Shown: positions 2,546 through 26,406 of the stretch, piece by piece
How the letters are laid out: every line of letters begins with the position of its first letter
How positions within the stretch are numbered: position 1 is the first letter of the stretch
DNA from: a virus
Strand: one strand, 5' to 3'
Length of the DNA stretch: 50,023 nt
Virus record (IMG/VR): IMGVR_UViG_3300045988_155579
Translations under genes and position numbers: made by a program
Notes under the pieces: model-generated
Seen by the model: the letters and a program-made list of their open reading frames with translations, nothing else
Databases searched by the model: none
Told to the model about the DNA's origin: nothing

Positions 2546-2575
2546 TTTACACATGAATCCTACATGCGATATAAT
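2546..2575 (+). promoter_or_regulatory. Sigma70-type promoter for the lone plus-strand HTH gene
   Basis: TTTACA (2546-2551), 18-nt spacer, TATAAT (2570-2575). It is divergent from the promoter at 2474-2502. Confidence 0.55.
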
Positions 2576-2595
2576 GGGTGCTGGAAGGTGATATA

Positions 2596-2829
2596 ATGTT
2601 TTCTTTTAACAAACTCTGGAAACTTCTGATTGATTTGGGCATGTCAAAGACTGAATTTCGGCAAAAAGTCGGACTTTCTTCTACGACAGTTGCCGCAATG
2701 GGTAAAGGTACGGGTTTAACACCTAAAGTTCTTGCCCGCATCTGTGAAACGCTGCATTGCCAACCGGGCGACATCATGGAGTACATTCCCGGTTCTTCGA
2801 CTTCCGAATTTCCCCATGAAACAAAATAA
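2596..2829 (+). CDS. XRE/Cro-family helix-turn-helix transcriptional regulator (77 aa)
   Basis: The HTH segment MSKTEFRQKVGLSSTTVAAMGKG and the overall layout resemble small XRE repressors. Start set at MFSFNKLW, with a GAAGGTGA RBS. Confidence 0.8.
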   Translation: MFSFNKLWKLLIDLGMSKTEFRQKVGLSSTTVAAMGKGTGLTPKVLARICETLHCQPGDIMEYIPGSSTSEFPHETK

Positions 2830-2830
2830 A

Positions 2831-2855
2831 GGCGTCGAAATCGACGCCTTTTCTT
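2831..2855. terminator. Bidirectional rho-independent terminator between convergent genes
   Basis: The ggcgtcga/tcgacgcc stem is flanked by aaaataaa on one side and ttttctttat on the other. It therefore reads as hairpin plus U-run on both strands. Confidence 0.6.
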
Positions 2856-9925: not shown

Positions 9926-11472
9926 TGCGCTGCCTCCGTTTTTTCATCACCGCAAAGTTCCGGCAGATTCGCTCTGACCAACGCTGCCGGAATCGGCGGA
10001 CAAACAGCGTTGCCGCATCTGGCGACCTGCTCCGCCTTCGGATAAGCCTTTCCGTCCACATCTACATCAATGATGTAGTTTTCAGGGAATCCCTGCGCAT
10101 CAAAAAGCTCGCGCGGCGTCAACATCCGCAGCCCGATGTCCACAATCTGATATTTTTCTCCGCGCACCGTAACCAGTCCAAGCCTGTCTTTGGATGTAAT
10201 CGTCGGTGCGGGCTTCTCACAGGATGCCGAATTATCTCCATGTCCGTAATACTTGACCAGGAACGCTCGAACATCTCCAAAATGGCCAGCTCTGGCCGTA
10301 ATGGTGTTGAGCGGTTCATCTGCGCATTGCCCATCACAATTATTGTTGAACTGCGTCACATAGGCCGCGCACAGCGCATTATGGTCGATGGCCGTTACCG
10401 TCGGCAATGGAGCATCCGCCGCGCTGGCCGGACTGCTCGTTCCGTAGAACTTGCTGATAAATGCAGAAACCATTCCATATCGGTTTGAAGCATCCACGGT
10501 CATAATCGGTTTATCTACCGTCTGCCCGCGCACTTCGCCGCCCTGCTCATCGTGATACTGAATCATCATGGGCATGACTACGCCCGTGCCATGCCTGGCC
10601 GTGATCGTATCCAGCGGTTCTTCGATATCCTGTCCCCTGAAATTTTCACCACCATGATTGACTTGAATAATGAATGGCGACGGATTCTTCAAAACAAATT
10701 TTTCAATGCCTCTCGCAATTCTACGCATGGTCTTTTCCGAAAGTGGGCGAACAGCATGAATCCCGTACTGCTTGAATATTTCCTCGCTCGTCGCAAAGAT
10801 TGACGGGCATGGAAGATTGAAGTCCAGCACATCAGCTACCGGCACCCACGGTTTTTTCATTCCCGCCAGTGCCTCAAAGCTATCTGGCGCTGCATGCGTC
10901 GGTTCAGGCCAGATAATCGGTTTTCCGTCACAGCGTGCAATCAGGAAGAACCGTTTTCGAATGGTCGGCGCTCCATAATCGCATGCCCGCATCGTCCTAT
11001 ACTCGACCTTGTACCCTTGCCGTTCGAGCTGGCTGACGAATCGCCGGAAAGTTTCACCCTTATACCGAGGATCTGGTCGGTTATCCTTATCAAGCCGTCC
11101 CCAGTCCTGAAATTCTTCTACGTTTTCCAGCATGATAACGCGCGGATGCACTGCTTTCGCCCACTTTACCGCAACCCAGGCCAGCCCTCGAATATGCCTG
11201 CTGACAGGCTTTCCACCTTTCGCCCTGCTGTGATGCTTACAGTCAGGCGAAAACCACGCCAGCGCCACAGGCCGCCCCGCACACACCTTGACGGGATTGA
11301 CCTTCCAAACATCCTCCTGATAATGCTCGGTTGTCGGATGGTTTGCTCTGTGCATCGCAATCGCCGCCGGGTCATGGTTGATGGCAATATCCACGCTGCG
11401 GCCTATTGCCATTTCAATACCCGTTGATGCGCCGCCGCCACCTGCGAAGTTATCCACGACAATCTCGCTCAT
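9922..11472 (-). CDS. dcm: DNA (cytosine-5)-methyltransferase
   Basis: C5-MTase motifs in order: DNFAGGGG (I), FSPDCKHHS (IV, PC), MLENV (VI), QGFPENY (IX), GNAVCPP (X). Confidence 0.9.
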   Translation of the reverse strand: MSEIVVDNFAGGGGASTGIEMAIGRSVDIAINHDPAAIAMHRANHPTTEHYQEDVWKVNPVKVCAGRPVALAWFSPDCKHHSRAKGGKPVSRHIRGLAWVAVKWAKAVHPRVIMLENVEEFQDWGRLDKDNRPDPRYKGETFRRFVSQLERQGYKVEYRTMRACDYGAPTIRKRFFLIARCDGKPIIWPEPTHAAPDSFEALAGMKKPWVPVADVLDFNLPCPSIFATSEEIFKQYGIHAVRPLSEKTMRRIARGIEKFVLKNPSPFIIQVNHGGENFRGQDIEEPLDTITARHGTGVVMPMMIQYHDEQGGEVRGQTVDKPIMTVDASNRYGMVSAFISKFYGTSSPASAADAPLPTVTAIDHNALCAAYVTQFNNNCDGQCADEPLNTITARAGHFGDVRAFLVKYYGHGDNSASCEKPAPTITSKDRLGLVTVRGEKYQIVDIGLRMLTPRELFDAQGFPENYIIDVDVDGKAYPKAEQVARCGNAVCPPIPAALVRANLPELCGDEKTEAAQ

Positions 11473-11501
11473 TTGACTTCACTGCTTTCTTTTGATATAA
11501 T
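11473..11501 (+). promoter_or_regulatory. Near-consensus plus-strand promoter with extended -10 (antisense orientation)
   Basis: TTGACT (11473-11478), 17-nt spacer, TGaTATAAT (TG at 11493-94, -10 at 11496-11501). Confidence 0.55.
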
Positions 11502-11507
11502 GAATAC

Positions 11508-11560
11508 GGTTTTTTGAGGAATGTCCTGCCCGCGCCCCTAACGCGGACAGGACGTTTTTT
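11508..11560 (+). ncRNA. Candidate ~53-nt cis-antisense sRNA (OOP-like) opposite the dcm leader
   Basis: The predicted start lies about 7 nt after the -10 box. The 12-bp hairpin gtcctgcccgcg/cgcggacaggac (11523-11553, one mismatch) is followed by TTTTTT (11555-11560). No plus-strand gene is nearby. Confidence 0.45.
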
Positions 11561-11562
11561 GT

Positions 11563-12381
11563 TTATGCGATAATCGTAACCATGCCGCTGGTTACCAAGT
11601 TATCCAGCGCCTTATCCAGATACGCGTGAATATCCTGAATCGCCCGATGCTTCCACAGGCCGCCGTCTGCCTCGTAAAGCGCAATCTCCGGCGTGCCCTT
11701 TCCATCGCTGTTCCTGATACGCAGAATGAACGGGCTTTCCGGCTGATCAATCTCGCAGAACGTGCGGAACGGCCTCAAATACACAGGATTTTTGATGACC
11801 ACATCGCTGACCCGCACAACGCCGTCACGCACCGTTACACGCTGACTGATGCCGTCGTCGCTGGTGTTTGTCCCCTTCTCTACGCTCAAATTGCCAACCA
11901 CCTTGCCGACTTCCAACGAATTGTCGGTTTCAATAAACCGGCTCTGAAGCTGCACGATGAATTCTTCCTGCCCAATATACCGCCCGAACTCGAATGGCTC
12001 ATTGTCGGTCACGACACGTGCCAGCTCAGCTCGAACCGCGTAATCATCACTGCATTTAATCCCGTACAGCACAACCTTGCGCGGGTCGGTCACCTGTACG
12101 ACCAAATTTCCAAACTTATCCAGCTGACCATCCGGGTCGTTCAGGATATAATCCACCAGACCGCTCAGCGTGAAGATGTTCACAGTCGGAAGAACCGCCG
12201 GAAACGGTTCTTTGATACGCACCAAATCATTCGTGTTGACATACATGCGGCCGTCAATCTCCTGCACCGTATAGCTACGGTTCTTGGTGCCCAGCTCGTA
12301 CAGGAAGCGCATCGCCTCAGCGTCAAGCTCTCCCAGCTTGAACAGTGGAACTTCCTTCATTTCGCCAACAATGCTTGCCAT
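11563..12381 (-). CDS. Conserved hypothetical phage protein (272 aa; possibly DUF2303/YfdQ-like)
   Basis: Clean ORF in the replication/recombination block. The family assignment rests on weak recollection only. Confidence 0.65.
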   Translation of the reverse strand: MASIVGEMKEVPLFKLGELDAEAMRFLYELGTKNRSYTVQEIDGRMYVNTNDLVRIKEPFPAVLPTVNIFTLSGLVDYILNDPDGQLDKFGNLVVQVTDPRKVVLYGIKCSDDYAVRAELARVVTDNEPFEFGRYIGQEEFIVQLQSRFIETDNSLEVGKVVGNLSVEKGTNTSDDGISQRVTVRDGVVRVSDVVIKNPVYLRPFRTFCEIDQPESPFILRIRNSDGKGTPEIALYEADGGLWKHRAIQDIHAYLDKALDNLVTSGMVTIIA

Positions 12382-15017: not shown

Positions 15018-15377
15018 TTACCTGTTACACCTCCTTTTTGCTTTTTCTGGTCTAAGTGCGGCAGCATGCCGCTGGTGCGGCGCGCCGGAGTTGAGCCGGC
15101 AACAGTGCCAAAGGGGAAGAACACTGTCAAAACCGTTTGCGCCGCATAGTGCCGGTCTTTCCCGGCTGCCAGTATGAATTTGCTATTTGATTTTGTGTCC
15201 GGCAGCGTACTCTGCCTCCCTTCTTCTGCCGCCTTTTCTACCGTTTCAGCTCGACTCCTTCTGCTTTGGCGGCCATCGGACTTAAACCGATATCTGCGCT
15301 CGGCGCTACTATCCACCGTGCGCTGCATTGCTTGTGCTACGCCGCCACGACGCGGGGGAATCTCCCCCGCATATTTA

Positions 15378-17178: not shown

Positions 17179-17787
17179 CTATCTGATTTCCGCCTGCATT
17201 GCGTTATAAATCGCCATGCAATGCAAAAAGTTTTTATATCCGTCATCGACCTGCCCGAAGTGATAACGTCCATCTCGCATAAGCTGTAAACCGTACAGCC
17301 GCCGAATCTTCATGCCGTGGCTTTGCATCGCATGGGCATACGCGCCAATCTGCGTGGCCAGCATAACGCTGTGATAAGCCGCGGTGCATTTCAGATCAAC
17401 CACATCAACGCCCTGCCCATCGTCGGGTTCGATGTGCCCCAGCAAGTCCAGCGTCCCCGCATACATCATCTGTCGATGATAGGTGCGAATCTCGCTGCCC
17501 TGCCAAGTCGGCGAATAATCCTTGCAAAAACGGAGGAACGCTCGGACGTATGGCGCAGTATCTTCATCTGTTTCAAGCACACCATACCTGACATAATTGC
17601 TGACCTGTTCATGCGCCCGCGTTCCTCTGTCTGCCGCCGCATCCAACGCCGCCTGCGGAACTGCTGCATAGAGCATGCTGCTCATCGGAGACATAATCTG
17701 CGTCACACTCGGCAGAACAAGCCCGCCCAGCGTGTACAAATGCTGCTGCTCATCAAATGCCAGCTCCGGCCTTGACTGTATCTCCAT
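17179..17787 (-). CDS. PD-(D/E)XK (RecB/Cas4-like) exonuclease
   Basis: GTRAHE, then TLDLLGH...VDVVDLKC fits the D...(D/E)xK nuclease core. The start forms a TGATG overlap with the upstream stop. Confidence 0.65.
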   Translation of the reverse strand: MEIQSRPELAFDEQQHLYTLGGLVLPSVTQIMSPMSSMLYAAVPQAALDAAADRGTRAHEQVSNYVRYGVLETDEDTAPYVRAFLRFCKDYSPTWQGSEIRTYHRQMMYAGTLDLLGHIEPDDGQGVDVVDLKCTAAYHSVMLATQIGAYAHAMQSHGMKIRRLYGLQLMRDGRYHFGQVDDGYKNFLHCMAIYNAMQAEIR

Positions 17788-18014
17788 CACACAGCCTCGC
17801 AATAATCCAGTTCTTCAAGGCTTGCGGCTTCCGCGCGGCTCTGGTACTCGTCGCAAACAACCACAGCGCTGTCCAGCGCCGTATATAAGCAACTGACCAA
17901 ATCGCCAAGCTGCACGTCCTGCAACGCTCCTTTTTCGGTGGTGCGAATCATAGTTCGCAACTCCCTGCAAACACTTTCCAGATGATCGAGGATGGCGTAT
18001 TCCGCTTCACTCAT
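17787..18014 (-). CDS. Hypothetical protein (75 aa)
   Basis: ATG (MSEAEYAIL) preceded by AAGGAGG at 7-nt spacing. Confidence 0.55.
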   Translation of the reverse strand: MSEAEYAILDHLESVCRELRTMIRTTEKGALQDVQLGDLVSCLYTALDSAVVVCDEYQSRAEAASLEELDYCEAV

Positions 18015-18025
18015 TGCGTACCTCC

Positions 18026-18055
18026 TTGACGTTTCTGTGACGAATCTGCTATAAT
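18026..18055 (+). promoter_or_regulatory. Near-consensus plus-strand promoter (antisense orientation)
   Basis: TTGACG (18026-18031), 18-nt spacer, TATAAT (18050-18055). Confidence 0.5.
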
Positions 18056-18061
18056 AACAAC

Positions 18062-18126
18062 AGCGCCACTTCTGGTCTGAATGCGGTGCGGAGGTCAGCA
18101 TCTTCTCCATGCTGATCTCTTTTTTT
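18062..18126 (+). ncRNA. Candidate ~65-nt antisense sRNA convergent with a small hydrophobic-peptide ORF
   Basis: Promoter as above. Terminator hairpin gaggtcagcat/atgctgatctc (18091-18119, one G-U pair) followed by seven T (18120-18126). There is no plus-strand CDS. Confidence 0.45.
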
Positions 18127-18265
18127 ATTGTCTCGCCGCATTTTGTTGTTCTTCCTTCTTGAGCTTGCACGCCGCCCAAATGAAGAATGACACGCCTCCG
18201 GCAATGCCGAGCGCAAGCAGGATGCTCACGCCAGCCCAGAACAGATCAATCAGTTTTTCGAGCAT
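18125..18265 (-). CDS. 46-aa hydrophobic peptide MLEKLIDLFWAGVSILLALGIAGGVSFFIWAACKLKKEEQQNAARQ (type I toxin-like or small membrane protein)
   Basis: Below the ORF-track cutoff and translated by hand. GAGGCGGG RBS, a single TM helix and a charged tail. The stop codon abuts the 3' end of the antisense sRNA candidate. Confidence 0.45.
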   Translation of the reverse strand: MLEKLIDLFWAGVSILLALGIAGGVSFFIWAACKLKKEEQQNAARQ

Positions 18266-18687
18266 TTCTTCCCGCCTCTTTTCTCGACTGTCTTTACATC
18301 ATCGCGAATCATCCGTTCTGTCGCATGAGATATGAACTCACAAACCAGCGACCCAGCCTTGTCCTCATCCTCACCCGCCAAGGTTTTCACGACAACGCTG
18401 ACACAGATTTCCAACGCTTCAAGGATATCCTTCGCATTTCCGGCCATCGTTGTAATGCCGTTCTCGACTTTAATCAGGCAGTTGCCGTCACTGACCTTGG
18501 ATTTTTCACCGCAAACGTCTTTGACCACCAGCTCGACAAACTTCTCGACAATCTCCTTGCGCATTTCGTCTTTTCTTCCTGCGCAGGCCACTTTGAGAAC
18601 ATTTATGGCAACGGCGGTTGCCTGTGCAAGCAGTAAATCGGCCGTTCCAGAAAGATGCAGTTCCTTGTTGTCCTTGCAATAAATCAT
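18250..18687 (-). CDS. Hypothetical protein (145 aa)
   Basis: Clean ORF in the early operon. No family recognised. Confidence 0.65.
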   Translation of the reverse strand: MIYCKDNKELHLSGTADLLLAQATAVAINVLKVACAGRKDEMRKEIVEKFVELVVKDVCGEKSKVSDGNCLIKVENGITTMAGNAKDILEALEICVSVVVKTLAGEDEDKAGSLVCEFISHATERMIRDDVKTVEKRGGKKCSKN

Positions 18688-19004: not shown

Positions 19005-19442
19005 CTAGATTTGTAAGAGACCCAACGCCGTTTCGATGGCCTCTCTGGCTTCCTCCAGCTCTTGTCGATAGCTGTTCCGCAGCGTCGGGTCAATCTGTCC
19101 ATCGACGGCATCCCGCTCCACTCTATCTTGGAGCTTGAGCACATCGTCGATCTGATGCTTGGTATTGACGACCGCACCGAGCAACCCCAACTCTCGGCTA
19201 TCGGACGCACCGAAGTATTTCACGATTTCGGGGTACTGCGCCCGTGCCCAGCGCCGGAACAAACCGACATCACGAAGCTGCTCCTCCATCACGTCCACGT
19301 CGGCCATCTCTGGAATCCAATCGCCGCGCTCCATGCGCTTGACCTGCTCAACAGACACACTGAGCAGCGCCGCAACCTGAATTTGGGTCAGCCCCGCCTC
19401 TTTTCGGGCATCCTTGAGAATCTGATGGGCTGGCTCGCTCAC
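19005..19442 (-). CDS. XRE-family HTH protein (146 aa)
   Basis: HTH segment LTQIQVAALLSVSVEQVKRMERG. GTG start with an AAGGAGG RBS. Confidence 0.7.
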   Translation of the reverse strand: MSEPAHQILKDARKEAGLTQIQVAALLSVSVEQVKRMERGDWIPEMADVDVMEEQLRDVGLFRRWARAQYPEIVKYFGASDSRELGLLGAVVNTKHQIDDVLKLQDRVERDAVDGQIDPTLRNSYRQELEEAREAIETALGLLQI

Positions 19443-19504
19443 GTTCCCGCCTCCTTTCTGAACTGAATCTGTGTCTTTTTTAGAGAAAATCAAACAGTTT
19501 CTGC

Positions 19505-19547
19505 AACTCTAAAGATTCATTAAATCATTTATAATTTCTTTAGAGTT
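19505..19547. promoter_or_regulatory. 10-bp perfect inverted repeat (aactctaaag ... ctttagagtt) between the cro-like gene and the next gene; candidate operator
   Basis: The arms are 19505-19514 and 19538-19547, with a 23-nt AT-rich spacer. The arms share the CTTTAG/CTAAAG core seen in the cI/cro intergenic region. Confidence 0.4.
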
Positions 19548-19548
19548 T

Positions 19549-19758
19549 TTAAGAGTGGCTATTCTCACCATCTTCTTCAATGATTTTCTCTGGCACTACG
19601 CCAAACAGCTTAGACAACCGCATAAGTGCTACCGCGTTTGGCAGGCAACGCCCGCTCTCCCATTGAGATACCGCTCCTACTGTCACGCCCGCTGCTTCTG
19701 CAACCTCTGTTTGCGTAAGCTTTCCTTTTTCTCGGAATTTCTTAATATTGCAAATCAT
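19549..19758 (-). CDS. cro: Cro-like XRE HTH regulator (69 aa)
   Basis: HTH segment LTQTEVAEAAGVTVGAVSQWESG. It is divergent from the repressor gene and has an AAAGGAGG RBS. Confidence 0.8.
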   Translation of the reverse strand: MICNIKKFREKGKLTQTEVAEAAGVTVGAVSQWESGRCLPNAVALMRLSKLFGVVPEKIIEEDGENSHS

Positions 19759-19786
19759 CTTTAGCCTCCTTTCTTTAGTTTTCTAA

Positions 19787-19815
19787 ATTATACTATAAAA
19801 CTTTAATGTTGTAAA
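19787..19815 (-). promoter_or_regulatory. Early (lytic) promoter
   Basis: Minus strand reads TTTACA (19810-19815), 17-nt spacer, TATAAT (19787-19792). Confidence 0.6.
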
Positions 19816-19853
19816 TACGTTTTCTATAAATTTCTGATTTTTTCTCATTCTGA

Positions 19854-19882
19854 TTGACTTATCTTTTTTAGAAATGTAAAAT
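19854..19882 (+). promoter_or_regulatory. Repressor (lysogenic) promoter
   Basis: TTGACT (19854-19859), 17-nt spacer, TAAAAT (19877-19882). It is back-to-back with the early promoter. Confidence 0.6.
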
Positions 19883-19910
19883 TCAATCAAGAGAAAACTA
19901 AAAAGGTGGA

Positions 19911-20537
19911 ATGTTTTTGAACCGTTTGAAAGAGTTGCGTCAGAAAAACGGCGTTAAGCAAAAAGATGTCGCCGCTATGCTCGGTGTCACCGCTGGAGCC
20001 GTTTCCCAATGGGAGAGTGGGCGCGTAAATATCGACTGGCGCTGTGCCACAACACTCGCTGAAAAGTTCCATGTTACCCCTGAATACTTACTCGGCGAAA
20101 CCGACATCATCGACAGTGCTTCTATTCAGGCTCCTGCCGCTGTCCGAATCCCTGTCGTCGGTACAATCCGTGCCGGAATCCCGCTGGCGGCCATCGAGGA
20201 TATTGAGGACTGGGAGGAAATTCCAGCGGACATGGCAAAGAAGGGCGAGTTCGTTGCTCTGCGTGTCAAGGGCGATTCAATGCTTCCCGATATCAAAGAT
20301 GGAGATGTCGCAATCATTCGTCGGCAGGAAAGCATTGAAAACGGACAAATCGCCGCGGTCATTGTCAACGGGGAAGAGGCAACAATAAAAAAAGTCCGGC
20401 TTTTGCCGGACGGAATCATGCTGATCGGTCTGAATACCGAAGTATACGAGCCTCATTTCTATTCAAAGCAGGAAATTTCTGATCTTCCCGTTCGCATTTA
20501 TGGGAAGCTGGTCGAAGTACGAAGGAAATTCTATTGA
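19911..20537 (+). CDS. cI: cI/LexA-like repressor (XRE HTH + S24 autopeptidase domain)
   Basis: N-terminal HTH VKQKDVAAMLGVTAGAVSQWESG. The C-terminal S24 domain has GDSMLP (catalytic Ser) and ATIKKV (Lys). Confidence 0.9.
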   Translation: MFLNRLKELRQKNGVKQKDVAAMLGVTAGAVSQWESGRVNIDWRCATTLAEKFHVTPEYLLGETDIIDSASIQAPAAVRIPVVGTIRAGIPLAAIEDIEDWEEIPADMAKKGEFVALRVKGDSMLPDIKDGDVAIIRRQESIENGQIAAVIVNGEEATIKKVRLLPDGIMLIGLNTEVYEPHFYSKQEISDLPVRIYGKLVEVRRKFY

Positions 20538-21993: not shown

Positions 21994-23127
21994 ATGCCAG
22001 CCCCCACCACTATGTCCTGTCGTCTCACAGAAGGCAGAGAGTTGCGCGGGCTTTCCGTCGCCGAACTGGCTGAACAGATCGGAGTGACGCGCCAATCTAT
22101 TTATAAATATGAAAACGGCACTCAAGCTCCAAGTGAAGAAACGGTTGAGCGCATTCAAAAAGCGCTCAACCTTCCCGCTTCTTTCTTCATATACTCTTCC
22201 GCCATTCCAGATCTTTCGTCTCGTCCTATTTTTTTCCGCGACATGAAAACCAATGAAGAAAAAAATCGAAAAATGTCCTATCGCTGGCTACAGATTTTGC
22301 GCGAACAGGTTGAACGCTATGAAAATTATCTGGACTTTCCGCCAGTGCATTTGCCTGAAATCGAATTGCCGGATATTTTAGACCTAACCGACGAAGATAT
22401 CGACATCGCCGCCGAAAATCTGCGTCGGGCATGGGGATTGGGTGACGGTCCCATCGACAATGTAACCCAACTCCTAGAAAATAATGGATTTATCATTTTT
22501 AGAAAGTATCTGCCTGCGGAAAAAATGGATGCTTGTTCACTTGTTCTCAATGGACGTCCCTACATTCTTATCAACACCTATAAGCAAACCTGTTCTCGTG
22601 ATCTCATTAACCTTGCCCATGAATTGGGGCACGTTATTTTGCATCAAAATATTTCGAGCGATGTCTTTCTATCTAAAGCAGACTTTGAAAGAATCGAAAA
22701 ACAGGCATGGCGTTTTGCAAAATCCTTTCTGATGCCCCCTGCTATTTTTTCCGCTGAAGTTGGCTGTCCTACCTTAAATCGCTTTATCGCCTTAAAAAAG
22801 CGGTGGCGTGTATCTATTTCCGCCATGATTATGTACTGCCATGACCTCGAACTTATCGACGACGCAAGAAAGCAGTATTTTTTCCGCGAAATGACGCGTA
22901 TGCACATTCGGAAAGAAGAGCCCTTGGATAGCGAACTTCCAGTTGAGCAGAGTGCCTTGCTCAAAGATGCCGAAGAATTGCTTGTTGATTCTCAAATCTT
23001 CACCAGAACAAAATTATTTGAACTGTCGCGGCTCAACATTGGTGATTACTGCGAAATGATTGGATTACCAGAAGATCTTTTTGCTACGAAAACAGTCCGG
23101 CCTCAACTGCGAATTATTCAATCATAA
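21994..23127 (+). CDS. XRE-HTH fused to an ImmA/IrrE-family (COG2856, M78) zinc metallopeptidase
   Basis: N-terminal HTH LSVAELAEQIGVTRQSIYKYENG. HEXXH motif AHELGHVILH in the central domain. AAGGAGG RBS. Confidence 0.85.
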   Translation: MPAPTTMSCRLTEGRELRGLSVAELAEQIGVTRQSIYKYENGTQAPSEETVERIQKALNLPASFFIYSSAIPDLSSRPIFFRDMKTNEEKNRKMSYRWLQILREQVERYENYLDFPPVHLPEIELPDILDLTDEDIDIAAENLRRAWGLGDGPIDNVTQLLENNGFIIFRKYLPAEKMDACSLVLNGRPYILINTYKQTCSRDLINLAHELGHVILHQNISSDVFLSKADFERIEKQAWRFAKSFLMPPAIFSAEVGCPTLNRFIALKKRWRVSISAMIMYCHDLELIDDARKQYFFREMTRMHIRKEEPLDSELPVEQSALLKDAEELLVDSQIFTRTKLFELSRLNIGDYCEMIGLPEDLFATKTVRPQLRIIQS

Positions 23128-23141
23128 GAGAGGATTATTCC

Positions 23142-24143
23142 ATGAGCAACGATTTTCGTTTTCTGATGTATCAATCCGCCGAAGAAAATGTGAGTATCAA
23201 CGCCATCATCAAAGACGAAACAATTTGGCTTTCTCAGAAAGGCATGGCCGAGCTGTTCGGCTGTTCGACAGACAACATTTCCCTCCACCTAAAAAATATC
23301 TTTTCCGACGGCGAATTGACGAAAGATTCAGTTTCCGAGAAAATCTCGGTAACTGCCGCAGATGGTAAAAATTATCCTACTCAGTTCTACAATCTGGACG
23401 CGATTATCTCCGTCGGCTACCGCGTCAACTCCCGCCGCGCGACGCACTTCCGCATCTGGGCAACCAGCGTCTTGAAGGAATACATGACCAAGGGCTTCGC
23501 ACTGGATGACGAGCGCCTCAAGCAGGGAACGGCCGCGTTTGGCCACGACTATTTCCGCGAGCTGCTTGAGCGCGTCCGCTCGATCCGCGCCAGCGAACGT
23601 CGCATCTGGCAGCAGGTGACGGATATCTTCGCGGAGTGCAGCATCGACTACGATAAAAACGCCGCCGTTGCCCATGACTTCTACGCCATGATTCAGAATA
23701 AATTCCACTATGCCATCACGGGGCAAACCGCCGCTGAAATCATCTATGACCGTGCCGACCGCACCAAAGATCACATGGGGCTGACCACATGGAAAAACGC
23801 CCCGGATGGCCGTATTCTCAAATCGGATGTTTCCATCGCCAAGAATTATCTGGATGCGAAGCAGATTCGTCAGCTTGAGCGCACCGTCTCCAGCTATTTC
23901 GATTATATCGAGGATCTGATCGAGCGCGAAAATGCCTTCACGATGGAGCAGTTCGCCTCCAGCGTCAACGAATTTCTCGCTTTCCGCCGCTATGACATTC
24001 TGCCTGATAAGGGGCGCATTTCCGCCGCGGCCGCAAAAAAGAAGGCCGAAGCGGAATACGACGCTTTCAACAAAACGCAGCGCATCGTCTCCGACTTCGA
24101 CCGTGAGGTGCAGCGCTTGATCGAATCCGAAAAGCGCAAATAA
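23142..24143 (+). CDS. RhuM-family protein
   Basis: The segments TIWLSQKGMAELFG...NISLHLKNIF, YNLDAIISVGYRVNS..ATHFRIWAT and RASERRIWQQVTDIF match my recollection of the RhuM/virulence-protein family. Confidence 0.75.
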   Translation: MSNDFRFLMYQSAEENVSINAIIKDETIWLSQKGMAELFGCSTDNISLHLKNIFSDGELTKDSVSEKISVTAADGKNYPTQFYNLDAIISVGYRVNSRRATHFRIWATSVLKEYMTKGFALDDERLKQGTAAFGHDYFRELLERVRSIRASERRIWQQVTDIFAECSIDYDKNAAVAHDFYAMIQNKFHYAITGQTAAEIIYDRADRTKDHMGLTTWKNAPDGRILKSDVSIAKNYLDAKQIRQLERTVSSYFDYIEDLIERENAFTMEQFASSVNEFLAFRRYDILPDKGRISAAAAKKKAEAEYDAFNKTQRIVSDFDREVQRLIESEKRK

Positions 24144-24314: not shown

Positions 24315-25559
24315 GTGCCAAGGCAGCACCTCAAACGCCGAAAAGATGGGCGCTTCGCATGTCGATATCAAGGAAAATGGTTTTACGGTTTGACAGAAGG
24401 TGAAGCCTTTGCCGCCCGCGATGCTTATAAGCAAATGCTGAAGCAGGGCATCCAGCGCGATGCCGATAGTATGGATGTTAGGCATTACGCTGCCTCATGG
24501 CTTCCCATTCACAAAGCCGATGTCAGCAAAAAACACTATAACGATTGCGCCCATCATATCGACATTCTTTGTGACCAAATCGGCGACATGCTCATTAAAG
24601 ACGTTAAGCCATCCGATATTAAGGCCGTCTACAGCGCACACTACCTCGGTTTGAGTGCCAGTACAATCAAACGTGCCAAATGTCTTTTTTCTGCAATCTT
24701 CGAGACAGCTATTGAAGACGGTTATGCTACCGTTAATCCTTGTCGATCAAAACATGCCAAACCGCCCAAGGGTTCATCGGGTTCTCATCGAACAATCACA
24801 GACTCTGAACGGGCTTTGATTCACGAGTGCAACCACAGTTTCCGCGCCGCCGTCTACGTCATGCTCTATGCCGGCCTGCGTCGTGGTGAAGCCCTCGCGC
24901 TCAATATTGACGAAGATGTAGATTTTGAGCATCATGTTATTCATGTTCACCATGCCATTCACTACGAAAGCAACCAGCCTATCCTCGGCGATCCTAAGAC
25001 CGAAGCAGGTGAGCGTGAAATACCGCTTCTCTCCATTCTGGAAAATGAACTTCGCGGACTACACGGCCTACTTGCCCCTGCTTGCAAAAACGGCGGTCTG
25101 ATGTCTGAAAGCGCCTTCTCCAGCGCTTGGAATTCGTACCTCGGAACAATCGAACGAAAGCTGAACGGTCACCCTAAGCGTTGGCATCATCGCGGAGCAA
25201 AAAATCGAAATCACGACCCTATCCAGCTCCGCGTTGAAGCTCTCATCAAAGCAGGAAAAACAGAAGAGGCCGAAGTCCTTCGCTTGTCCGATTGGAAAAC
25301 ACTCTCTGTTCGCCCCCATGACTTTCGCCACAGCTACTGCACCATGCTTCGCGATGCCGGAACTGATCTCAAGCTCGCAATGAAATGGATGGGTCATGCT
25401 GATGAAAAAATGATTCTGAAAATTTATGACCATGTAACGGATTTTCGCACTGAGCAGGCGCTCTCCACTCTCGAAAAAATGACCTCTGGTAGTCAAAATG
25501 GTAGTCAAACAGAAAATCGCATCAGAAACTTTCAGCAATATCAGGAAAAACTCTCCTAA
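24315..25559 (+). CDS. int: Tyrosine site-specific integrase
   Basis: Catalytic signature RRGEALAL ... HDFRHSYCT ... MGHADEKMILKIYDHV (R, HxxR, H, Y). GTG start. Confidence 0.92.
   Translation: MPRQHLKRRKDGRFACRYQGKWFYGLTEGEAFAARDAYKQMLKQGIQRDADSMDVRHYAASWLPIHKADVSKKHYNDCAHHIDILCDQIGDMLIKDVKPSDIKAVYSAHYLGLSASTIKRAKCLFSAIFETAIEDGYATVNPCRSKHAKPPKGSSGSHRTITDSERALIHECNHSFRAAVYVMLYAGLRRGEALALNIDEDVDFEHHVIHVHHAIHYESNQPILGDPKTEAGEREIPLLSILENELRGLHGLLAPACKNGGLMSESAFSSAWNSYLGTIERKLNGHPKRWHHRGAKNRNHDPIQLRVEALIKAGKTEEAEVLRLSDWKTLSVRPHDFRHSYCTMLRDAGTDLKLAMKWMGHADEKMILKIYDHVTDFRTEQALSTLEKMTSGSQNGSQTENRIRNFQQYQEKLS
25489..25509 (+). repeat. Tandem arm-type repeat gtagtcaaaatggtagtcaaa (left of the attP core, inside the int 3' end)
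   Basis: Two GTAGTCAAA units with a 12-nt period. The 21-mer recurs at 25776-25796 with one mismatch. Confidence 0.8.
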
Positions 25560-25810: not shown

Positions 25811-26041
25811 TTATTCCCGGCTTCGATCTATGAGATCGTCGATTCGGCATCCAAGCACATCCGCCATCTTGATAAGCACATCGACTCGCGGCGAATGAAC
25901 GCCACGCTCCCATCTGCTCACATCTTTCTGGCTGCATCCTAACGCGGCTGCCATCTGTCCTTGCGTCATACCCGCCGCCATCCGTGCCCGCGCAAGCGGC
26001 GAATCATTCCCGCGCTCTCGCGGAGCTTTATGCCCTTCCAT
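25811..26041 (-). CDS. XRE-family HTH protein (76 aa)
   Basis: HTH segment MTQGQMAAALGCSQKDVSRWERG. AAGAGGAAAA RBS. Confidence 0.75.
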   Translation of the reverse strand: MEGHKAPRERGNDSPLARARMAAGMTQGQMAAALGCSQKDVSRWERGVHSPRVDVLIKMADVLGCRIDDLIDRSRE

Positions 26042-26054
26042 AGTTCTTTTCCTC

Positions 26055-26083
26055 TTGTCATTTTTTTACCGCCATGATAAAAT
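26055..26083 (+). promoter_or_regulatory. Plus-strand promoter with extended -10 (antisense orientation)
   Basis: TTGTCA (26055-26060), 17-nt spacer, TGaTAAAAT (TG at 26075-76, -10 at 26078-26083). Confidence 0.5.
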
Positions 26084-26089
26084 AAAAGG

Positions 26090-26170
26090 GAAAGAGGAAC
26101 GGCGGCGGTGTTTTCCGTTCCCCTCTCGGTCTTGAGCTTACTTCGTGCCGGAAGTAAGCTCTTTTTCTTT
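26090..26170 (+). ncRNA. Candidate ~80-nt sRNA convergent with and overlapping the 3' end of a small minus-strand ORF
   Basis: Two hairpins: ggaacgg/ccgttcc (26096-26121), and the perfect 11-bp gagcttacttc/gaagtaagctc (26134-26161) followed by TTTTTCTTT (26162-26170). Confidence 0.4.
26096..26121 (-). terminator. Possible minus-strand terminator/attenuator after the small ORF
   Basis: On the minus strand the 7-bp hairpin is followed by TCTTTCCCTTTTATTTTATC. Confidence 0.35.
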
Positions 26171-26308
26171 ACCCTGCATCCTTTCTATAAGGGCTATTGT
26201 CTTTTCAATGCTTTGAGTTTCCTGAGCGTATTCCTTGATTGCTTCGAGCACCGCCTGAAATTCTTTGTCTGTCATTCCTTCGCTGATCTCCTTATTCAAG
26301 TTTTTCAC
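26138..26308 (-). CDS. Small hydrophilic helical protein (about 46-56 aa; start uncertain, GTG 26308 or ATG 26275)
   Basis: The tracked ORF start (TTG 26386) lies inside the promoter, so the real start must be downstream. The peptide reads ...MTDKEFQAVLEAIKEYAQETQSIEKTIALIERMQGKEKELTSGTK. Confidence 0.35.
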   Translation of the reverse strand: MKNLNKEISEGMTDKEFQAVLEAIKEYAQETQSIEKTIALIERMQGKEKELTSGTK

Positions 26309-26345
26309 CGCCTTTCTGTCAGTGGCTTTCCCTCCTGACACATTT

Positions 26346-26374
26346 ATTATATACCATTTTCGGCATTTTGTAAA
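26346..26374 (-). promoter_or_regulatory. Consensus-like minus-strand promoter downstream of the lysis terminator
   Basis: Minus strand reads TTTACA (26369-26374), 17-nt spacer, TATAAT (26346-26351). Confidence 0.55.
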
Positions 26375-26406
26375 TACATTTTTCAATTATTTTCATATTT
26401 TAGAGC

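What the first reader, a model, noticed from the sequence alone, without database searches (positions are those of the whole stretch)
18026..18265. Type I toxin-antitoxin-like pair: a 46-aa hydrophobic peptide ORF convergent with a promoter+terminator sRNA cassette on the opposite strand
Seen in the sequence: an untracked minus-strand ORF at 18125..18265 encodes MLEKLIDLFWAGVSILLALGIAGGVSFFIWAACKLKKEEQQNAARQ, which has one TM helix, a charged tail and its own SD. On the plus strand, where no protein gene exists for about 16 kb either side, TTGACG-18-TATAAT (18026-18055) is followed about 35 nt later by an 11-bp hairpin plus a T7 run (18091-18126). That run ends exactly at the peptide's stop codon. 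Established knowledge: prophage type I TA loci such as bsrG/SR4 and txpA/RatA have a small membrane toxin and an antisense RNA that overlaps the toxin mRNA 3' region. Lambda OOP is a comparable antisense RNA. Inference: the ~65-nt RNA pairs with the mRNA just downstream of the peptide ORF and may control its stability, or that of gene 17787..18014, whose RBS overlaps the sRNA promoter.
Basis: partly seen in the sequence, partly recalled or inferred. Interest (0 to 1): 0.68.

Follow-up and report, generated by a model that had tools for sequence, protein, structure and literature searches.

The report
OOP-like antisense small RNA cassette
A 110-base gap in the early operon of an uncultured human-gut Clostridia prophage most likely encodes a roughly 65-nt antisense RNA built like phage lambda's OOP RNA; it is probably an operon regulator, not the antidote half of a toxin-antitoxin pair with the neighbouring 46-aa membrane peptide.

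Summary
On the plus strand, TTGACG-18-(TG)TATAAT at 18026-18055 is followed by a 12-bp hairpin and T7 at 18090-18126. This fills the gap between a 46-aa TM-peptide ORF (18125-18265, minus) and a 75-aa gene (17787-18014, minus). No such promoter-plus-terminator pair occurred in 100 shuffles of the window.

Across 16 distinct relatives the gap varies at 6 of 110 sites, against 32% at neighbouring third codon positions. The promoter hexamers and the hairpin never vary.

The type I toxin-antitoxin reading is not supported:
- The peptide has no promoter or terminator of its own and overlaps the upstream gene by 16 nt.
- It matches no toxin family.
- The same cassette geometry recurs twice more in this genome (11473-11560 and 26055-26170).
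- It also recurs in three distant phage lineages, upstream of the exonuclease gene, next to non-hydrophobic genes.

In each case the -35 abuts the downstream gene's ribosome-binding site or start, and the T-run ends at the upstream gene's stop codon or 3' end. Lambda's OOP cassette, scanned with the same tools, has the same layout.

My best reading is a cis-antisense RNA that punctuates or silences the early lytic operon. It is a new member of a known kind. No expression data exist.

The parts
18026..18055 (+). Sigma-A-type promoter: -35 TTGACG (18026-18031), 18-nt spacer, TG (18047-18048), -10 TATAAT (18050-18055)
   Evidence: 11/12 match with TG. The hexamers and TG are invariant in 55 copies (8 distinct sequences) from relatives, while the spacer varies at 2 sites.
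18062..18126 (+). Predicted small RNA of about 65 nt (the 5' end is inferred from the -10). It has a 5' hairpin at 18063-18089, a terminator hairpin at 18090-18120 and a T-run at 18120-18126. It is antisense to the intercistronic part of the early mRNA.
   Evidence: -27.6 kcal/mol, z = -5.2. The hairpin is invariant in relatives. The two changes in the 5' hairpin arm (G->A, C->T) keep pairing on this strand. The terminator stem has two G.U pairs that exist only on this strand (-16.9 against -13.0 kcal/mol). No Rfam match.
18125..18265 (-). 46-aa ORF with one predicted TM helix and a charged tail. It is probably a real small membrane protein gene of the early operon. It overlaps the upstream gene by 16 nt, and its stop codon is the complement of the end of the T-run.
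   Evidence: It is called as a gene in all related contigs. Its family is narrow, at 71% identity or more. No family match. No promoter of its own.
17787..18014 (-). 75-aa gene immediately downstream in the operon. Its SD (CCTCC at 18021-18025 on the plus strand) abuts the -35 of the antisense promoter. It is followed directly by the exonuclease gene at 17179-17787.
   Evidence: PHROG exonuclease hit for 17179-17787.
18250..18687 (-). 145-aa orphan gene upstream of the peptide ORF and translationally overlapped with it
   Evidence: No relative below 81% identity among 1.84 billion representatives. The AlphaFold model is unusable, pLDDT 37.9.
19787..19815 (-). Early lytic promoter (TTTACA-17-TATAAT) upstream of the Cro-like gene at 19549-19758. 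It is the source of the sense transcript that the small RNA opposes. The cI-like repressor gene lies at 19911-20537 on the plus strand.
11473..11560 (+). Second cassette with the same geometry: TTGACT-17-(TG)TATAAT at 11473-11501, a hairpin at about 11523-11553, and T6 at 11555-11560. It lies between a 272-aa gene (stop codon at 11563) and the C5 DNA methylase gene (start at 11472).
   Evidence: The promoter is invariant in 8 distinct relatives.
26055..26170 (+). Third cassette with the same geometry: TTGTCA-17-(TG)TAAAAT at 26055-26083, two hairpins, and a terminator at 26134-26161 followed by a T-run. It lies between a small minus-strand ORF (26138-26386) and a 76-aa HTH gene (25811-26041), whose SD abuts the -35.
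   Evidence: The RNA part is identical in relative L042, while the promoter flank differs at 3 non-critical sites.

Best explanation
The gap at 18015-18124 is a self-contained gene for a two-hairpin RNA of about 65 nt. It is transcribed from a strong, probably constitutive sigma-A promoter, on the same strand as the repressor gene, and stopped by an intrinsic terminator. The RNA is perfectly complementary to the intercistronic stretch of the early lytic mRNA, between the 46-aa ORF and the 75-aa/exonuclease module.

The layout is that of lambda OOP. The promoter sits on the ribosome-binding site or start of the downstream gene, and the RNA ends at the stop codon of the upstream gene.

The mechanism is inferred, not shown. 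Convergent transcription and RNA-RNA pairing would cut or destabilise the early transcript at this point, through a double-strand-specific RNase and then 5' exonuclease. That would lower expression of the recombination and replication genes downstream. It would do so either to silence leak-through in the lysogen or in a superinfecting relative, or to set the ratio of upstream to downstream products after induction.

It is one of three such cassettes in this genome. The 46-aa ORF is most likely an ordinary early-operon membrane protein that happens to be the upstream neighbour.
For: SHOWN:
1. The promoter, hairpin and T-run are present and beyond chance.
2. Purifying selection acts on the gap. 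Variable sites number 6 of 110, against 132 of 416 at third codon positions of the three neighbouring genes (Fisher p = 9e-10). None of the 45 promoter and hairpin positions varies (p = 1e-7). All variation lies in the spacer, next to the start site, in the loop of the 5' hairpin, or in T-run length.
3. G.U pairs and the two arm substitutions favour the plus-strand RNA.
4. The cassette is identical in relatives that carry different repressor and Cro alleles. No operator-like site lies near it, so it is not under immunity control.
5. The same geometry occurs twice more in the window.
6. Non-alignable cassettes with the same geometry sit one or two small genes upstream of the exonuclease gene in three lineages, at 63%, 56% and 35% exonuclease identity.
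7. In one of those lineages, L084 and L092 differ by about 19% in the upstream coding sequence, yet both hairpins and both hexamers are identical.
8. Lambda's oop region, scanned with the same tools, shows the -10 overlapping the ATG of gene O and the terminator inside the 3' end of cII, with a two-hairpin fold.

FROM THE LITERATURE: OOP acts on cII-O mRNA through RNase III (PMC5869508, PMC12197685).
Against: - There are no expression data. The host is uncultured.
- The predicted RNA does not cover any ribosome-binding site. It starts about 36 nt upstream of the 75-aa gene's SD.
- For cassette 1, the usable divergence comes from only two clades about 7% apart.
- In cassette 2, natural variants keep the stem only on the mRNA strand, so the hairpins may also, or instead, act in the sense transcript.
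- Sixteen other related loci have no such cassette, even at a relaxed threshold, so it is dispensable.
- The cassettes of different lineages cannot be aligned, so common descent is unproven.
Confidence: 0.58

Rival explanations
1. Type I toxin-antitoxin pair. The 46-aa peptide is a membrane toxin, and the small RNA is its antitoxin, pairing with the toxin mRNA's 3' region as in bsrG/SR4, txpA/RatA or the C. difficile prophage CD0977.1/RCd11 systems.
For: - The peptide has the usual shape: a hydrophobic N-terminal part and a charged tail. This is as described for C. difficile prophage toxins, which lie convergent with their antitoxin RNAs (PMC7699646).
- The RNA ends exactly at the peptide's stop codon.
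- Rare metagenomic variants carry in-frame TM deletions or frameshifts.
- Synonymous sites of the ORF are unusually conserved: 13% variable against 32% in neighbours, p = 0.01.
Against: - The peptide has no promoter of its own (best match 8/12) and no sense-strand terminator.
- It overlaps the upstream gene by 16 nt.
- It has no homology to any toxin family.
- The pair never occurs outside this gene order. There is one hit among one genome each of 185,579 bacterial and archaeal species, and that hit is the same prophage.
- Five cassettes with the same geometry adjoin non-hydrophobic upstream genes.
- The RNA overlaps only 2 nt of the ORF.
Confidence: 0.08
2. Transcriptional interference only. 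The strong convergent promoter matters as a DNA element that loads RNA polymerase against the early operon by collision or occlusion at the downstream gene's ribosome-binding-site DNA. The terminator merely confines the transcript, and the RNA itself has no role.
For: - In all seven cassettes examined, lambda's included, the promoter lies on the ribosome-binding site or start of the downstream gene, and the RNA avoids the site.
- RNA sequences are not conserved between lineages.
Against: Within lineages the RNA body, especially both hairpins, is more conserved than the promoter spacer. A mere by-product would not need a conserved 5' hairpin.
Confidence: 0.14
3. The hairpins act in the sense (early) mRNA, as intercistronic stabiliser or processing sites. 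The antisense promoter-like sequences are incidental.
For: - Each hairpin also folds on the mRNA strand (-13.0 and -26.2 kcal/mol).
- Cassette 2 variants keep the stem only on that strand.
Against: - Consensus extended -10 promoters are conserved in four independent lineages.
- T-runs follow the hairpin only on the antisense strand.
- No such pairing arose in 100 shuffles.
- Cassette 1's G.U pairs exist only on the antisense strand.
Confidence: 0.1
4. A trans-acting prophage small RNA (a moron) that regulates host or other phage mRNAs through its pyrimidine-rich loop (CUUCUCC). Its antisense position is incidental.
For: - It has its own promoter and terminator and lies on the lysogeny strand.
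- The C/U-rich terminator loop is complementary to an SD-like GGAGAAG.
- Prophage small RNAs that act in trans are known (PMC12197685).
Against: - Pairing with 33 phage translation-start regions was no better than for shuffled RNAs.
- The position next to the same gene module recurs in lineages with unrelated RNA sequences.
- The host genome was not available for target prediction.
Confidence: 0.06

Closest known systems
Lambda OOP RNA (pO promoter, cII-O junction)
   Same: - It is a short RNA with its own promoter and intrinsic terminator, on the repressor strand, antisense to the early rightward operon at the border between regulatory genes and replication/recombination genes.
- The promoter overlaps the start of the downstream gene, and the 3' end reaches the end of the upstream gene.
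- It folds as two hairpins.
- These points were checked on lambda itself with the same tools.
   Different: - There is no sequence similarity, and the host is a Clostridia bacterium rather than E. coli.
- OOP overlaps about 55 nt of the cII coding sequence; this RNA overlaps 2 nt of the upstream ORF.
- The upstream gene here is a 46-aa membrane peptide, not a CII-type regulator. A CII-like HTH gene lies three genes further up.
- This genome has three such cassettes.
- RNase III dependence was not tested.
P22 sar RNA (arc-ant intercistronic antisense RNA)
   Same: It is a small antisense RNA encoded in an intercistronic region of a phage operon that controls the downstream cistron (PMC12197685).
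   Different: From my own knowledge, sar covers the ant ribosome-binding site. Here the RNA stops short of it and only the promoter DNA covers it.
Type I toxin-antitoxin loci with 3' overlap (B. subtilis bsrG/SR4 and txpA/RatA; C. difficile prophage CD0977.1/RCd11)
   Same: They pair a small hydrophobic peptide with a charged tail and a convergent small RNA in a prophage of a Firmicute (PMC7699646).
   Different: - The peptide lacks its own promoter and terminator.
- It is not homologous to any known toxin.
- The RNA's position tracks the downstream module, not the peptide, across lineages.
Intra-operon antisense small RNAs of bacteria (E. coli SraG between rpsO and pnp; Streptomyces scr4677)
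   Same: They are small RNA genes placed in an intergenic gap of an operon and transcribed against it (abstracts of PMC5029454 and PMC3896431).
   Different: They are chromosomal and not phage-borne, and their geometry relative to the ribosome-binding site and stop codon differs.
STnc6030 of Salmonella prophage BTP1
   Same: It is a prophage-expressed antisense RNA that acts on phage mRNA and limits superinfection without blocking induction (PMC12197685). That is a possible role here.
   Different: It is antisense to a structural gene, not to an early intercistronic gap.

Membership tests
Type I toxin-antitoxin system | Small (<60 aa) hydrophobic peptide with a TM helix | tested here: met
   46 aa; the hydrophobic stretch runs from about L8 to C33, with the tail KLKKEEQQNAARQ. 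Judged by sequence only.
Type I toxin-antitoxin system | Peptide belongs to a known toxin family | tested here: not met
   No hit in Pfam even at E = 10, nor in NCBIfam, PADLOC or PHROGs. tblastn against 50,697 phage records found nothing.
Type I toxin-antitoxin system | Toxin gene is its own transcription unit, with a promoter and a terminator or defined 3' end | tested here: not met
   The best minus-strand promoter match upstream is 8/12. The ORF overlaps the 145-aa gene by 16 nt. The hairpin has no U-run on the sense strand.
Type I toxin-antitoxin system | Antisense RNA overlaps the toxin mRNA | tested here: inconclusive
   The predicted RNA is complementary to the 65 nt directly 3' of the stop codon and to 2 nt of the ORF. 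Whether that region is the peptide's 3' UTR or simply the operon's intercistronic RNA cannot be told without transcript ends.
Type I toxin-antitoxin system | RNA and toxin travel together as a module | tested here: not met
   The pair is found only in one fixed gene order. Cassettes with the same geometry elsewhere adjoin genes of 272, about 80, 67, 78 and 222 aa that are not hydrophobic.
Type I toxin-antitoxin system | Peptide is toxic and the RNA neutralises it | not testable with these tools
   This needs expression experiments.
OOP-type phage antisense RNA (by function and architecture, not homology) | RNA of about 60-80 nt with its own promoter and intrinsic terminator, opposite to the early operon, on the repressor strand | tested here: met
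   This is a prediction from sequence; transcription was not observed.
OOP-type phage antisense RNA (by function and architecture, not homology) | Promoter overlaps the start region of the downstream gene, and the RNA ends at or in the 3' end of the upstream gene | tested here: met
   In the window the -35 abuts the SD and the T-run lies in the stop codon. In lambda the -10 overlaps the ATG of O and the terminator lies inside cII.
OOP-type phage antisense RNA (by function and architecture, not homology) | Sequence or covariance-model similarity to a described RNA family | tested here: not met
   No Rfam family matched, at gathering score or in the local E-value search.
OOP-type phage antisense RNA (by function and architecture, not homology) | Target is the mRNA of a CII-type lysogeny regulator | tested here: not met
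   The upstream gene is the 46-aa peptide. The gene with weak CII-like PHROG hits is 19005-19493, three genes upstream.
OOP-type phage antisense RNA (by function and architecture, not homology) | RNase III-dependent cleavage of the duplex | not testable with these tools
   This needs RNA-end mapping in wild-type and rnc backgrounds.
P22 sar-type antisense RNA | RNA is complementary to the ribosome-binding site of the downstream cistron | tested here: not met
   The predicted 5' end (about 18062) lies 36 nt from the SD at 18021-18025. The same holds in L068, L076 and L084.

The most novel reading that the evidence does not exclude
This group of gut Clostridia phages uses a modular system of 'antisense punctuation'. 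Several short, constitutively expressed antisense RNA cassettes are each wedged between a stop codon and the next ribosome-binding site. Together they gate successive modules of the lytic programme: recombination/replication, DNA methylases, and an accessory HTH gene. Cassettes are gained or replaced repeatedly at the same operon position. The system would act as an RNA-level lock on prophage leak-through or as RNA-based superinfection immunity, independent of the protein repressor.
Probability: 0.2. Interest if true: 0.62.

Novelty: new member of a known kind. Interest (0 to 1): 0.42.

Why it matters
Antisense control of phage early operons is textbook for lambda and P22, but it is almost undescribed for the abundant temperate phages of gut Firmicutes, where no host can be grown.

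Here the same compact design appears three times in one genome. Unrelated sequences with that design occupy the same operon position in distant lineages. That pattern suggests a widespread and easily evolved regulatory device. Genome annotation misses it: there is no Rfam family and the gaps are left blank.

The case also warns against calling a type I toxin-antitoxin system from a hydrophobic mini-ORF next to a small-RNA cassette.

The cassette has a clear sequence signature: -35 against the SD, two hairpins, T-run in the stop codon. It could therefore be searched for systematically.

Tried and rejected
- **Rfam.** The whole window at gathering score and the local region at E <= 10 gave nothing relevant.
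- **Cultured-phage database.** blastn and tblastn found no relatives.
- **Protein homology.** All three searches (peptide, 75-aa, 145-aa) gave only narrow families, at 71-81% identity or more. A full HMMER scan showed the 145-aa protein is an orphan.
- **Structure of the 145-aa protein.** The AlphaFold model had pLDDT 37.9 and was unusable, so I ran no fold search. It has no sequence relative in the PDB.
- **Homology of the small genes with those of 65%-identity relatives.** None was found, so a precise 'insertion' could not be defined.
- **Repressor-operator control of the small-RNA promoter.** The TTTAG-N4-CTAAA sites occur only in the cI-cro region, and whole-window counts are at chance level.
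- **Longer structures around the peptide ORF, on either strand.** Both were unremarkable, z = -2.1 and -1.4.
- **Trans targets.** A whole-window duplex scan timed out. A scan of 33 translation-start regions did no better than shuffled RNAs.
- **Aligning the cassettes of different lineages for a covariance model.** They were not alignable, so I built no model.
- **G.U versus C.A strand test.** Cassettes 1 and 2 gave opposite answers, with too few events to decide.

Full report
**Context**

The window is a temperate phage genome.
- A cI-like repressor gene (HTH plus S24 peptidase) lies at 19911-20537 on the plus strand. A Cro-like gene lies at 19549-19758 on the minus strand.
- An 11/12 promoter at 19815-19787 drives a long minus-strand early operon.
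- Reading along that operon, the order is:
  - Cro;
  - a 162-aa HTH protein with weak CII-like PHROG hits;
  - a 97-aa HTH_17 protein;
  - a 145-aa orphan;
  - the 46-aa ORF;
  - the 110-nt gap;
  - a 75-aa gene;
  - an exonuclease;
  - a second exonuclease-family protein;
  - a 352-aa protein;
  - a DnaB-type helicase;
  - two DNA methylases.
- An exact 30-nt match to the hairpin occurs in one of the 185,579 species genomes searched, a contig of an uncultured Clostridiales bacterium.
- In related contigs the integrase adjoins host genes, so the element is a prophage of human-gut Clostridia.
- Nothing similar exists among 50,697 deposited phage genomes.

**The observation**

All the features are present at the stated coordinates.
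- TTGACG-18-TATAAT at 18026-18055 matches 11 of 12 positions and has an extended -10 TG.
- A 12-bp hairpin at 18090-18120 is followed by seven T at 18120-18126. The last of these are the complement of the peptide's TAA stop codon.
- The -35 abuts the GGAGG of the 75-aa gene.
- The predicted RNA (18062-18127) folds into a 5' hairpin plus the terminator hairpin, at -27.6 kcal/mol and z = -5.2.
- In 100 dinucleotide shuffles of the window, my scan found no 11/12 promoter followed by a terminator. The shuffles averaged 0.34 such promoters, against 9 observed.
- One detail is wrong. The repressor gene, a plus-strand protein gene, lies only 1.8 kb away.

**Conservation in close relatives**

Relatives come from IMG/VR and from many human-gut metagenomes. 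They form two clades about 7% apart and carry mosaic immunity regions: repressors of 186 or 206 aa, and Cro of 65 or 69 aa.
- Among 16 distinct sequences, the gap varies at 6 of 110 positions. Third codon positions of the three neighbouring genes vary at 132 of 416 (p = 9e-10).
- None of the 45 positions making up the hexamers, the TG and the hairpin varies (p = 1e-7).
- The six changes lie in the promoter spacer (two), next to the predicted start (two), and in the 5' arm of the first hairpin (two). The last two are G.U to A-U and C-G to U.G, so both keep pairing on the plus strand.
- A 3-nt insertion falls in that hairpin's loop, and the T-run is T7 or T6.
- Across 55 fetched copies the picture is unchanged.
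- The terminator stem has two G.U pairs that would be A.C mismatches on the mRNA strand (-16.9 against -13.0 kcal/mol).
- Because the cassette is identical across different immunity alleles and has no operator-like site, it is probably not controlled by the repressor.

**The peptide**

- The ORF is kept, and is called as a gene, in every relative.
- It has a plausible SD and the shape of a single-pass membrane peptide.
- Its family is narrow.
- Between the clades there are two amino-acid changes and four silent changes.
- Over all variants, variable sites spread 3:5:6 over the codon positions.
- Third positions are less variable than in the neighbouring genes (13% against 32%, p = 0.01). I leave this unexplained.
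- Rare variants with in-frame TM deletions or frameshifts exist as singletons.
- The ORF matches no family in four libraries.

**Why not a toxin-antitoxin pair**

- The peptide ORF overlaps the 145-aa gene by 16 nt.
- It has no upstream promoter better than 8/12.
- It has no sense-strand terminator.
- It is never found away from this gene order.

The decisive point is that the cassette's geometry is not tied to the peptide.

The window holds two more plus-strand cassettes of the same build:
- The cassette at 11473-11560 has TTGACT-17-(TG)TATAAT, a hairpin and T6. It lies between a 272-aa gene's stop codon and the start codon of the C5 methylase gene. It is conserved in eight distinct relatives.
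- The cassette at 26055-26170 lies between a small ORF and a 76-aa HTH gene, whose SD abuts the -35. Its RNA part is identical in a relative.

**Distant lineages**

Using the exonuclease as an anchor, I fetched 63 metagenomic loci at 25-100% identity.

A promoter-plus-terminator scan found antisense cassettes one or two small genes upstream of the exonuclease in three further lineages:
- L068, at 63% exonuclease identity;
- L075 and L076, at 56%;
- L084, L085, L086 and L092, at about 35%.

Reading them gives the same geometry in each case:
- The -35 lies against the SD or start of the downstream small gene. L076 has TGTCAAGGAGG where the window has CGTCAAGGAGG.
- The RNA is 76-83 nt with two hairpins, z = -3.9 to -5.2.
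- The T-run ends in the stop codon or 3' end of the upstream gene.
- The upstream genes, of 67, 78 and 222 aa, are not hydrophobic.

Further points on these lineages:
- The RNAs cannot be aligned between lineages.
- L084 and L092 are 78.6% identical overall, and about 19% divergent in the upstream coding sequence. Even so, both hexamers and both hairpins are identical. Changes fall only next to the start site and in the A/T-run. This repeats the pattern seen in the window's lineage.
- Sixteen other related loci lack any such cassette, even at a 9/12 threshold. The device is therefore optional, and is either gained repeatedly or turns over fast.

**Comparison with lambda**

I scanned the cII-O region of lambda with the same tools.
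- The pO -10 (CATAAT) contains the complement of O's ATG.
- The RNA crosses the 32-nt cII-O gap and ends in a terminator inside the 3' end of cII.
- It folds as two hairpins.

This is the layout found here. OOP promotes RNase III-dependent cleavage of cII-O mRNA (PMC5869508; PMC12197685).

**Mechanism**

- Shown: a conserved antisense promoter, hairpins and terminator, in a fixed position relative to the neighbouring genes.
- Inferred: transcription of a roughly 65-nt RNA; its pairing with the early mRNA; and the consequences.
- The RNA does not cover a ribosome-binding site, so direct translational block as with P22 sar is unlikely.
- Cleavage of the duplex, followed by decay of the downstream part, is the most economical model. 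Polymerase collision at the promoter lying over the ribosome-binding-site DNA could contribute.
- Either way, the effect would be lower expression of the recombination/replication module relative to the upstream regulators, or silencing of leak-through or superinfecting transcripts in lysogens.
- I found no support for trans targets among phage start regions.
- In cassette 2, natural variants keep the stem only on the mRNA strand, so a role for the hairpins in the sense transcript cannot be excluded.

**Verdict**

- The small-RNA reading is well supported by comparative evidence, though unproven.
- The toxin-antitoxin label is not supported.
- This is a new, non-homologous member of the known class of phage cis-antisense RNAs of the OOP type.
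- Its threefold recurrence in one genome, and its positional recurrence across lineages, give it moderate interest.

Noticed in passing
window 11473-11560 (+): A second antisense promoter-RNA-terminator cassette lies between a 272-aa gene and the C5 DNA methylase gene. Its promoter is invariant in relatives. Natural hairpin variants keep pairing only on the mRNA strand.
   Followed up: yes
window 26055-26170 (+): A third cassette of the same geometry lies near the integrase / late-operon junction, between a small minus-strand ORF (26138-26386) and a 76-aa HTH gene (25811-26041). Its RNA part is identical in relative L042.
   Followed up: partly
L068 3685-3794; L076 3440-3549; L084 3652-3767 (all antisense to the exonuclease strand): Non-homologous antisense cassettes occupy the same operon position in distant phage lineages. 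In these three lineages the downstream gene is a small Cys-rich (CxxC) protein.
   Followed up: yes
window 15018-15377: A 360-nt non-coding gap lies between the 352-aa gene and the DUF6291 gene. A GC-rich hairpin (15352-15370) sits next to the upstream gene's stop codon and is followed by a U-rich tail on the plus strand only. No consensus promoter was found. It could be an origin or another RNA element.
   Followed up: no
window 2546-2851 (+): This is a plus-strand moron-like unit: an 11/12 promoter (2546-2575), a 77-aa HTH_26 gene (2596-2829), and a bidirectional terminator (2828-2851).
   Followed up: partly
window 19500-19910: The immunity region has 35.5% GC against 52.8% for the window. 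It carries TTTAG-N4-CTAAA palindromes at 19774 and 19867. Relatives have swapped repressor and Cro alleles while keeping the downstream genes, which indicates mosaic exchange.
   Followed up: partly
window 18125-18265 (-): Third codon positions of the 46-aa ORF are less variable (6 of 46) than those of the neighbouring genes (132 of 416), and variable sites are spread evenly over the codon positions. Rare metagenomic variants have in-frame TM deletions of 12 or 18 nt, or frameshifts.
   Followed up: partly
window 21994-24143 (+): A gene for an HTH plus M78-peptidase (ImmA/IrrE-like) protein and a RhuM-family gene lie between the repressor and the integrase (24315-25559). Relatives carry different integrases and sit next to different host genes.
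   Followed up: no
L068 3337-3546 (+): A 69-aa hydrophobic ORF with a charged tail lies one gene upstream of that lineage's cassette. It is unclear whether it is a real gene.
   Followed up: no
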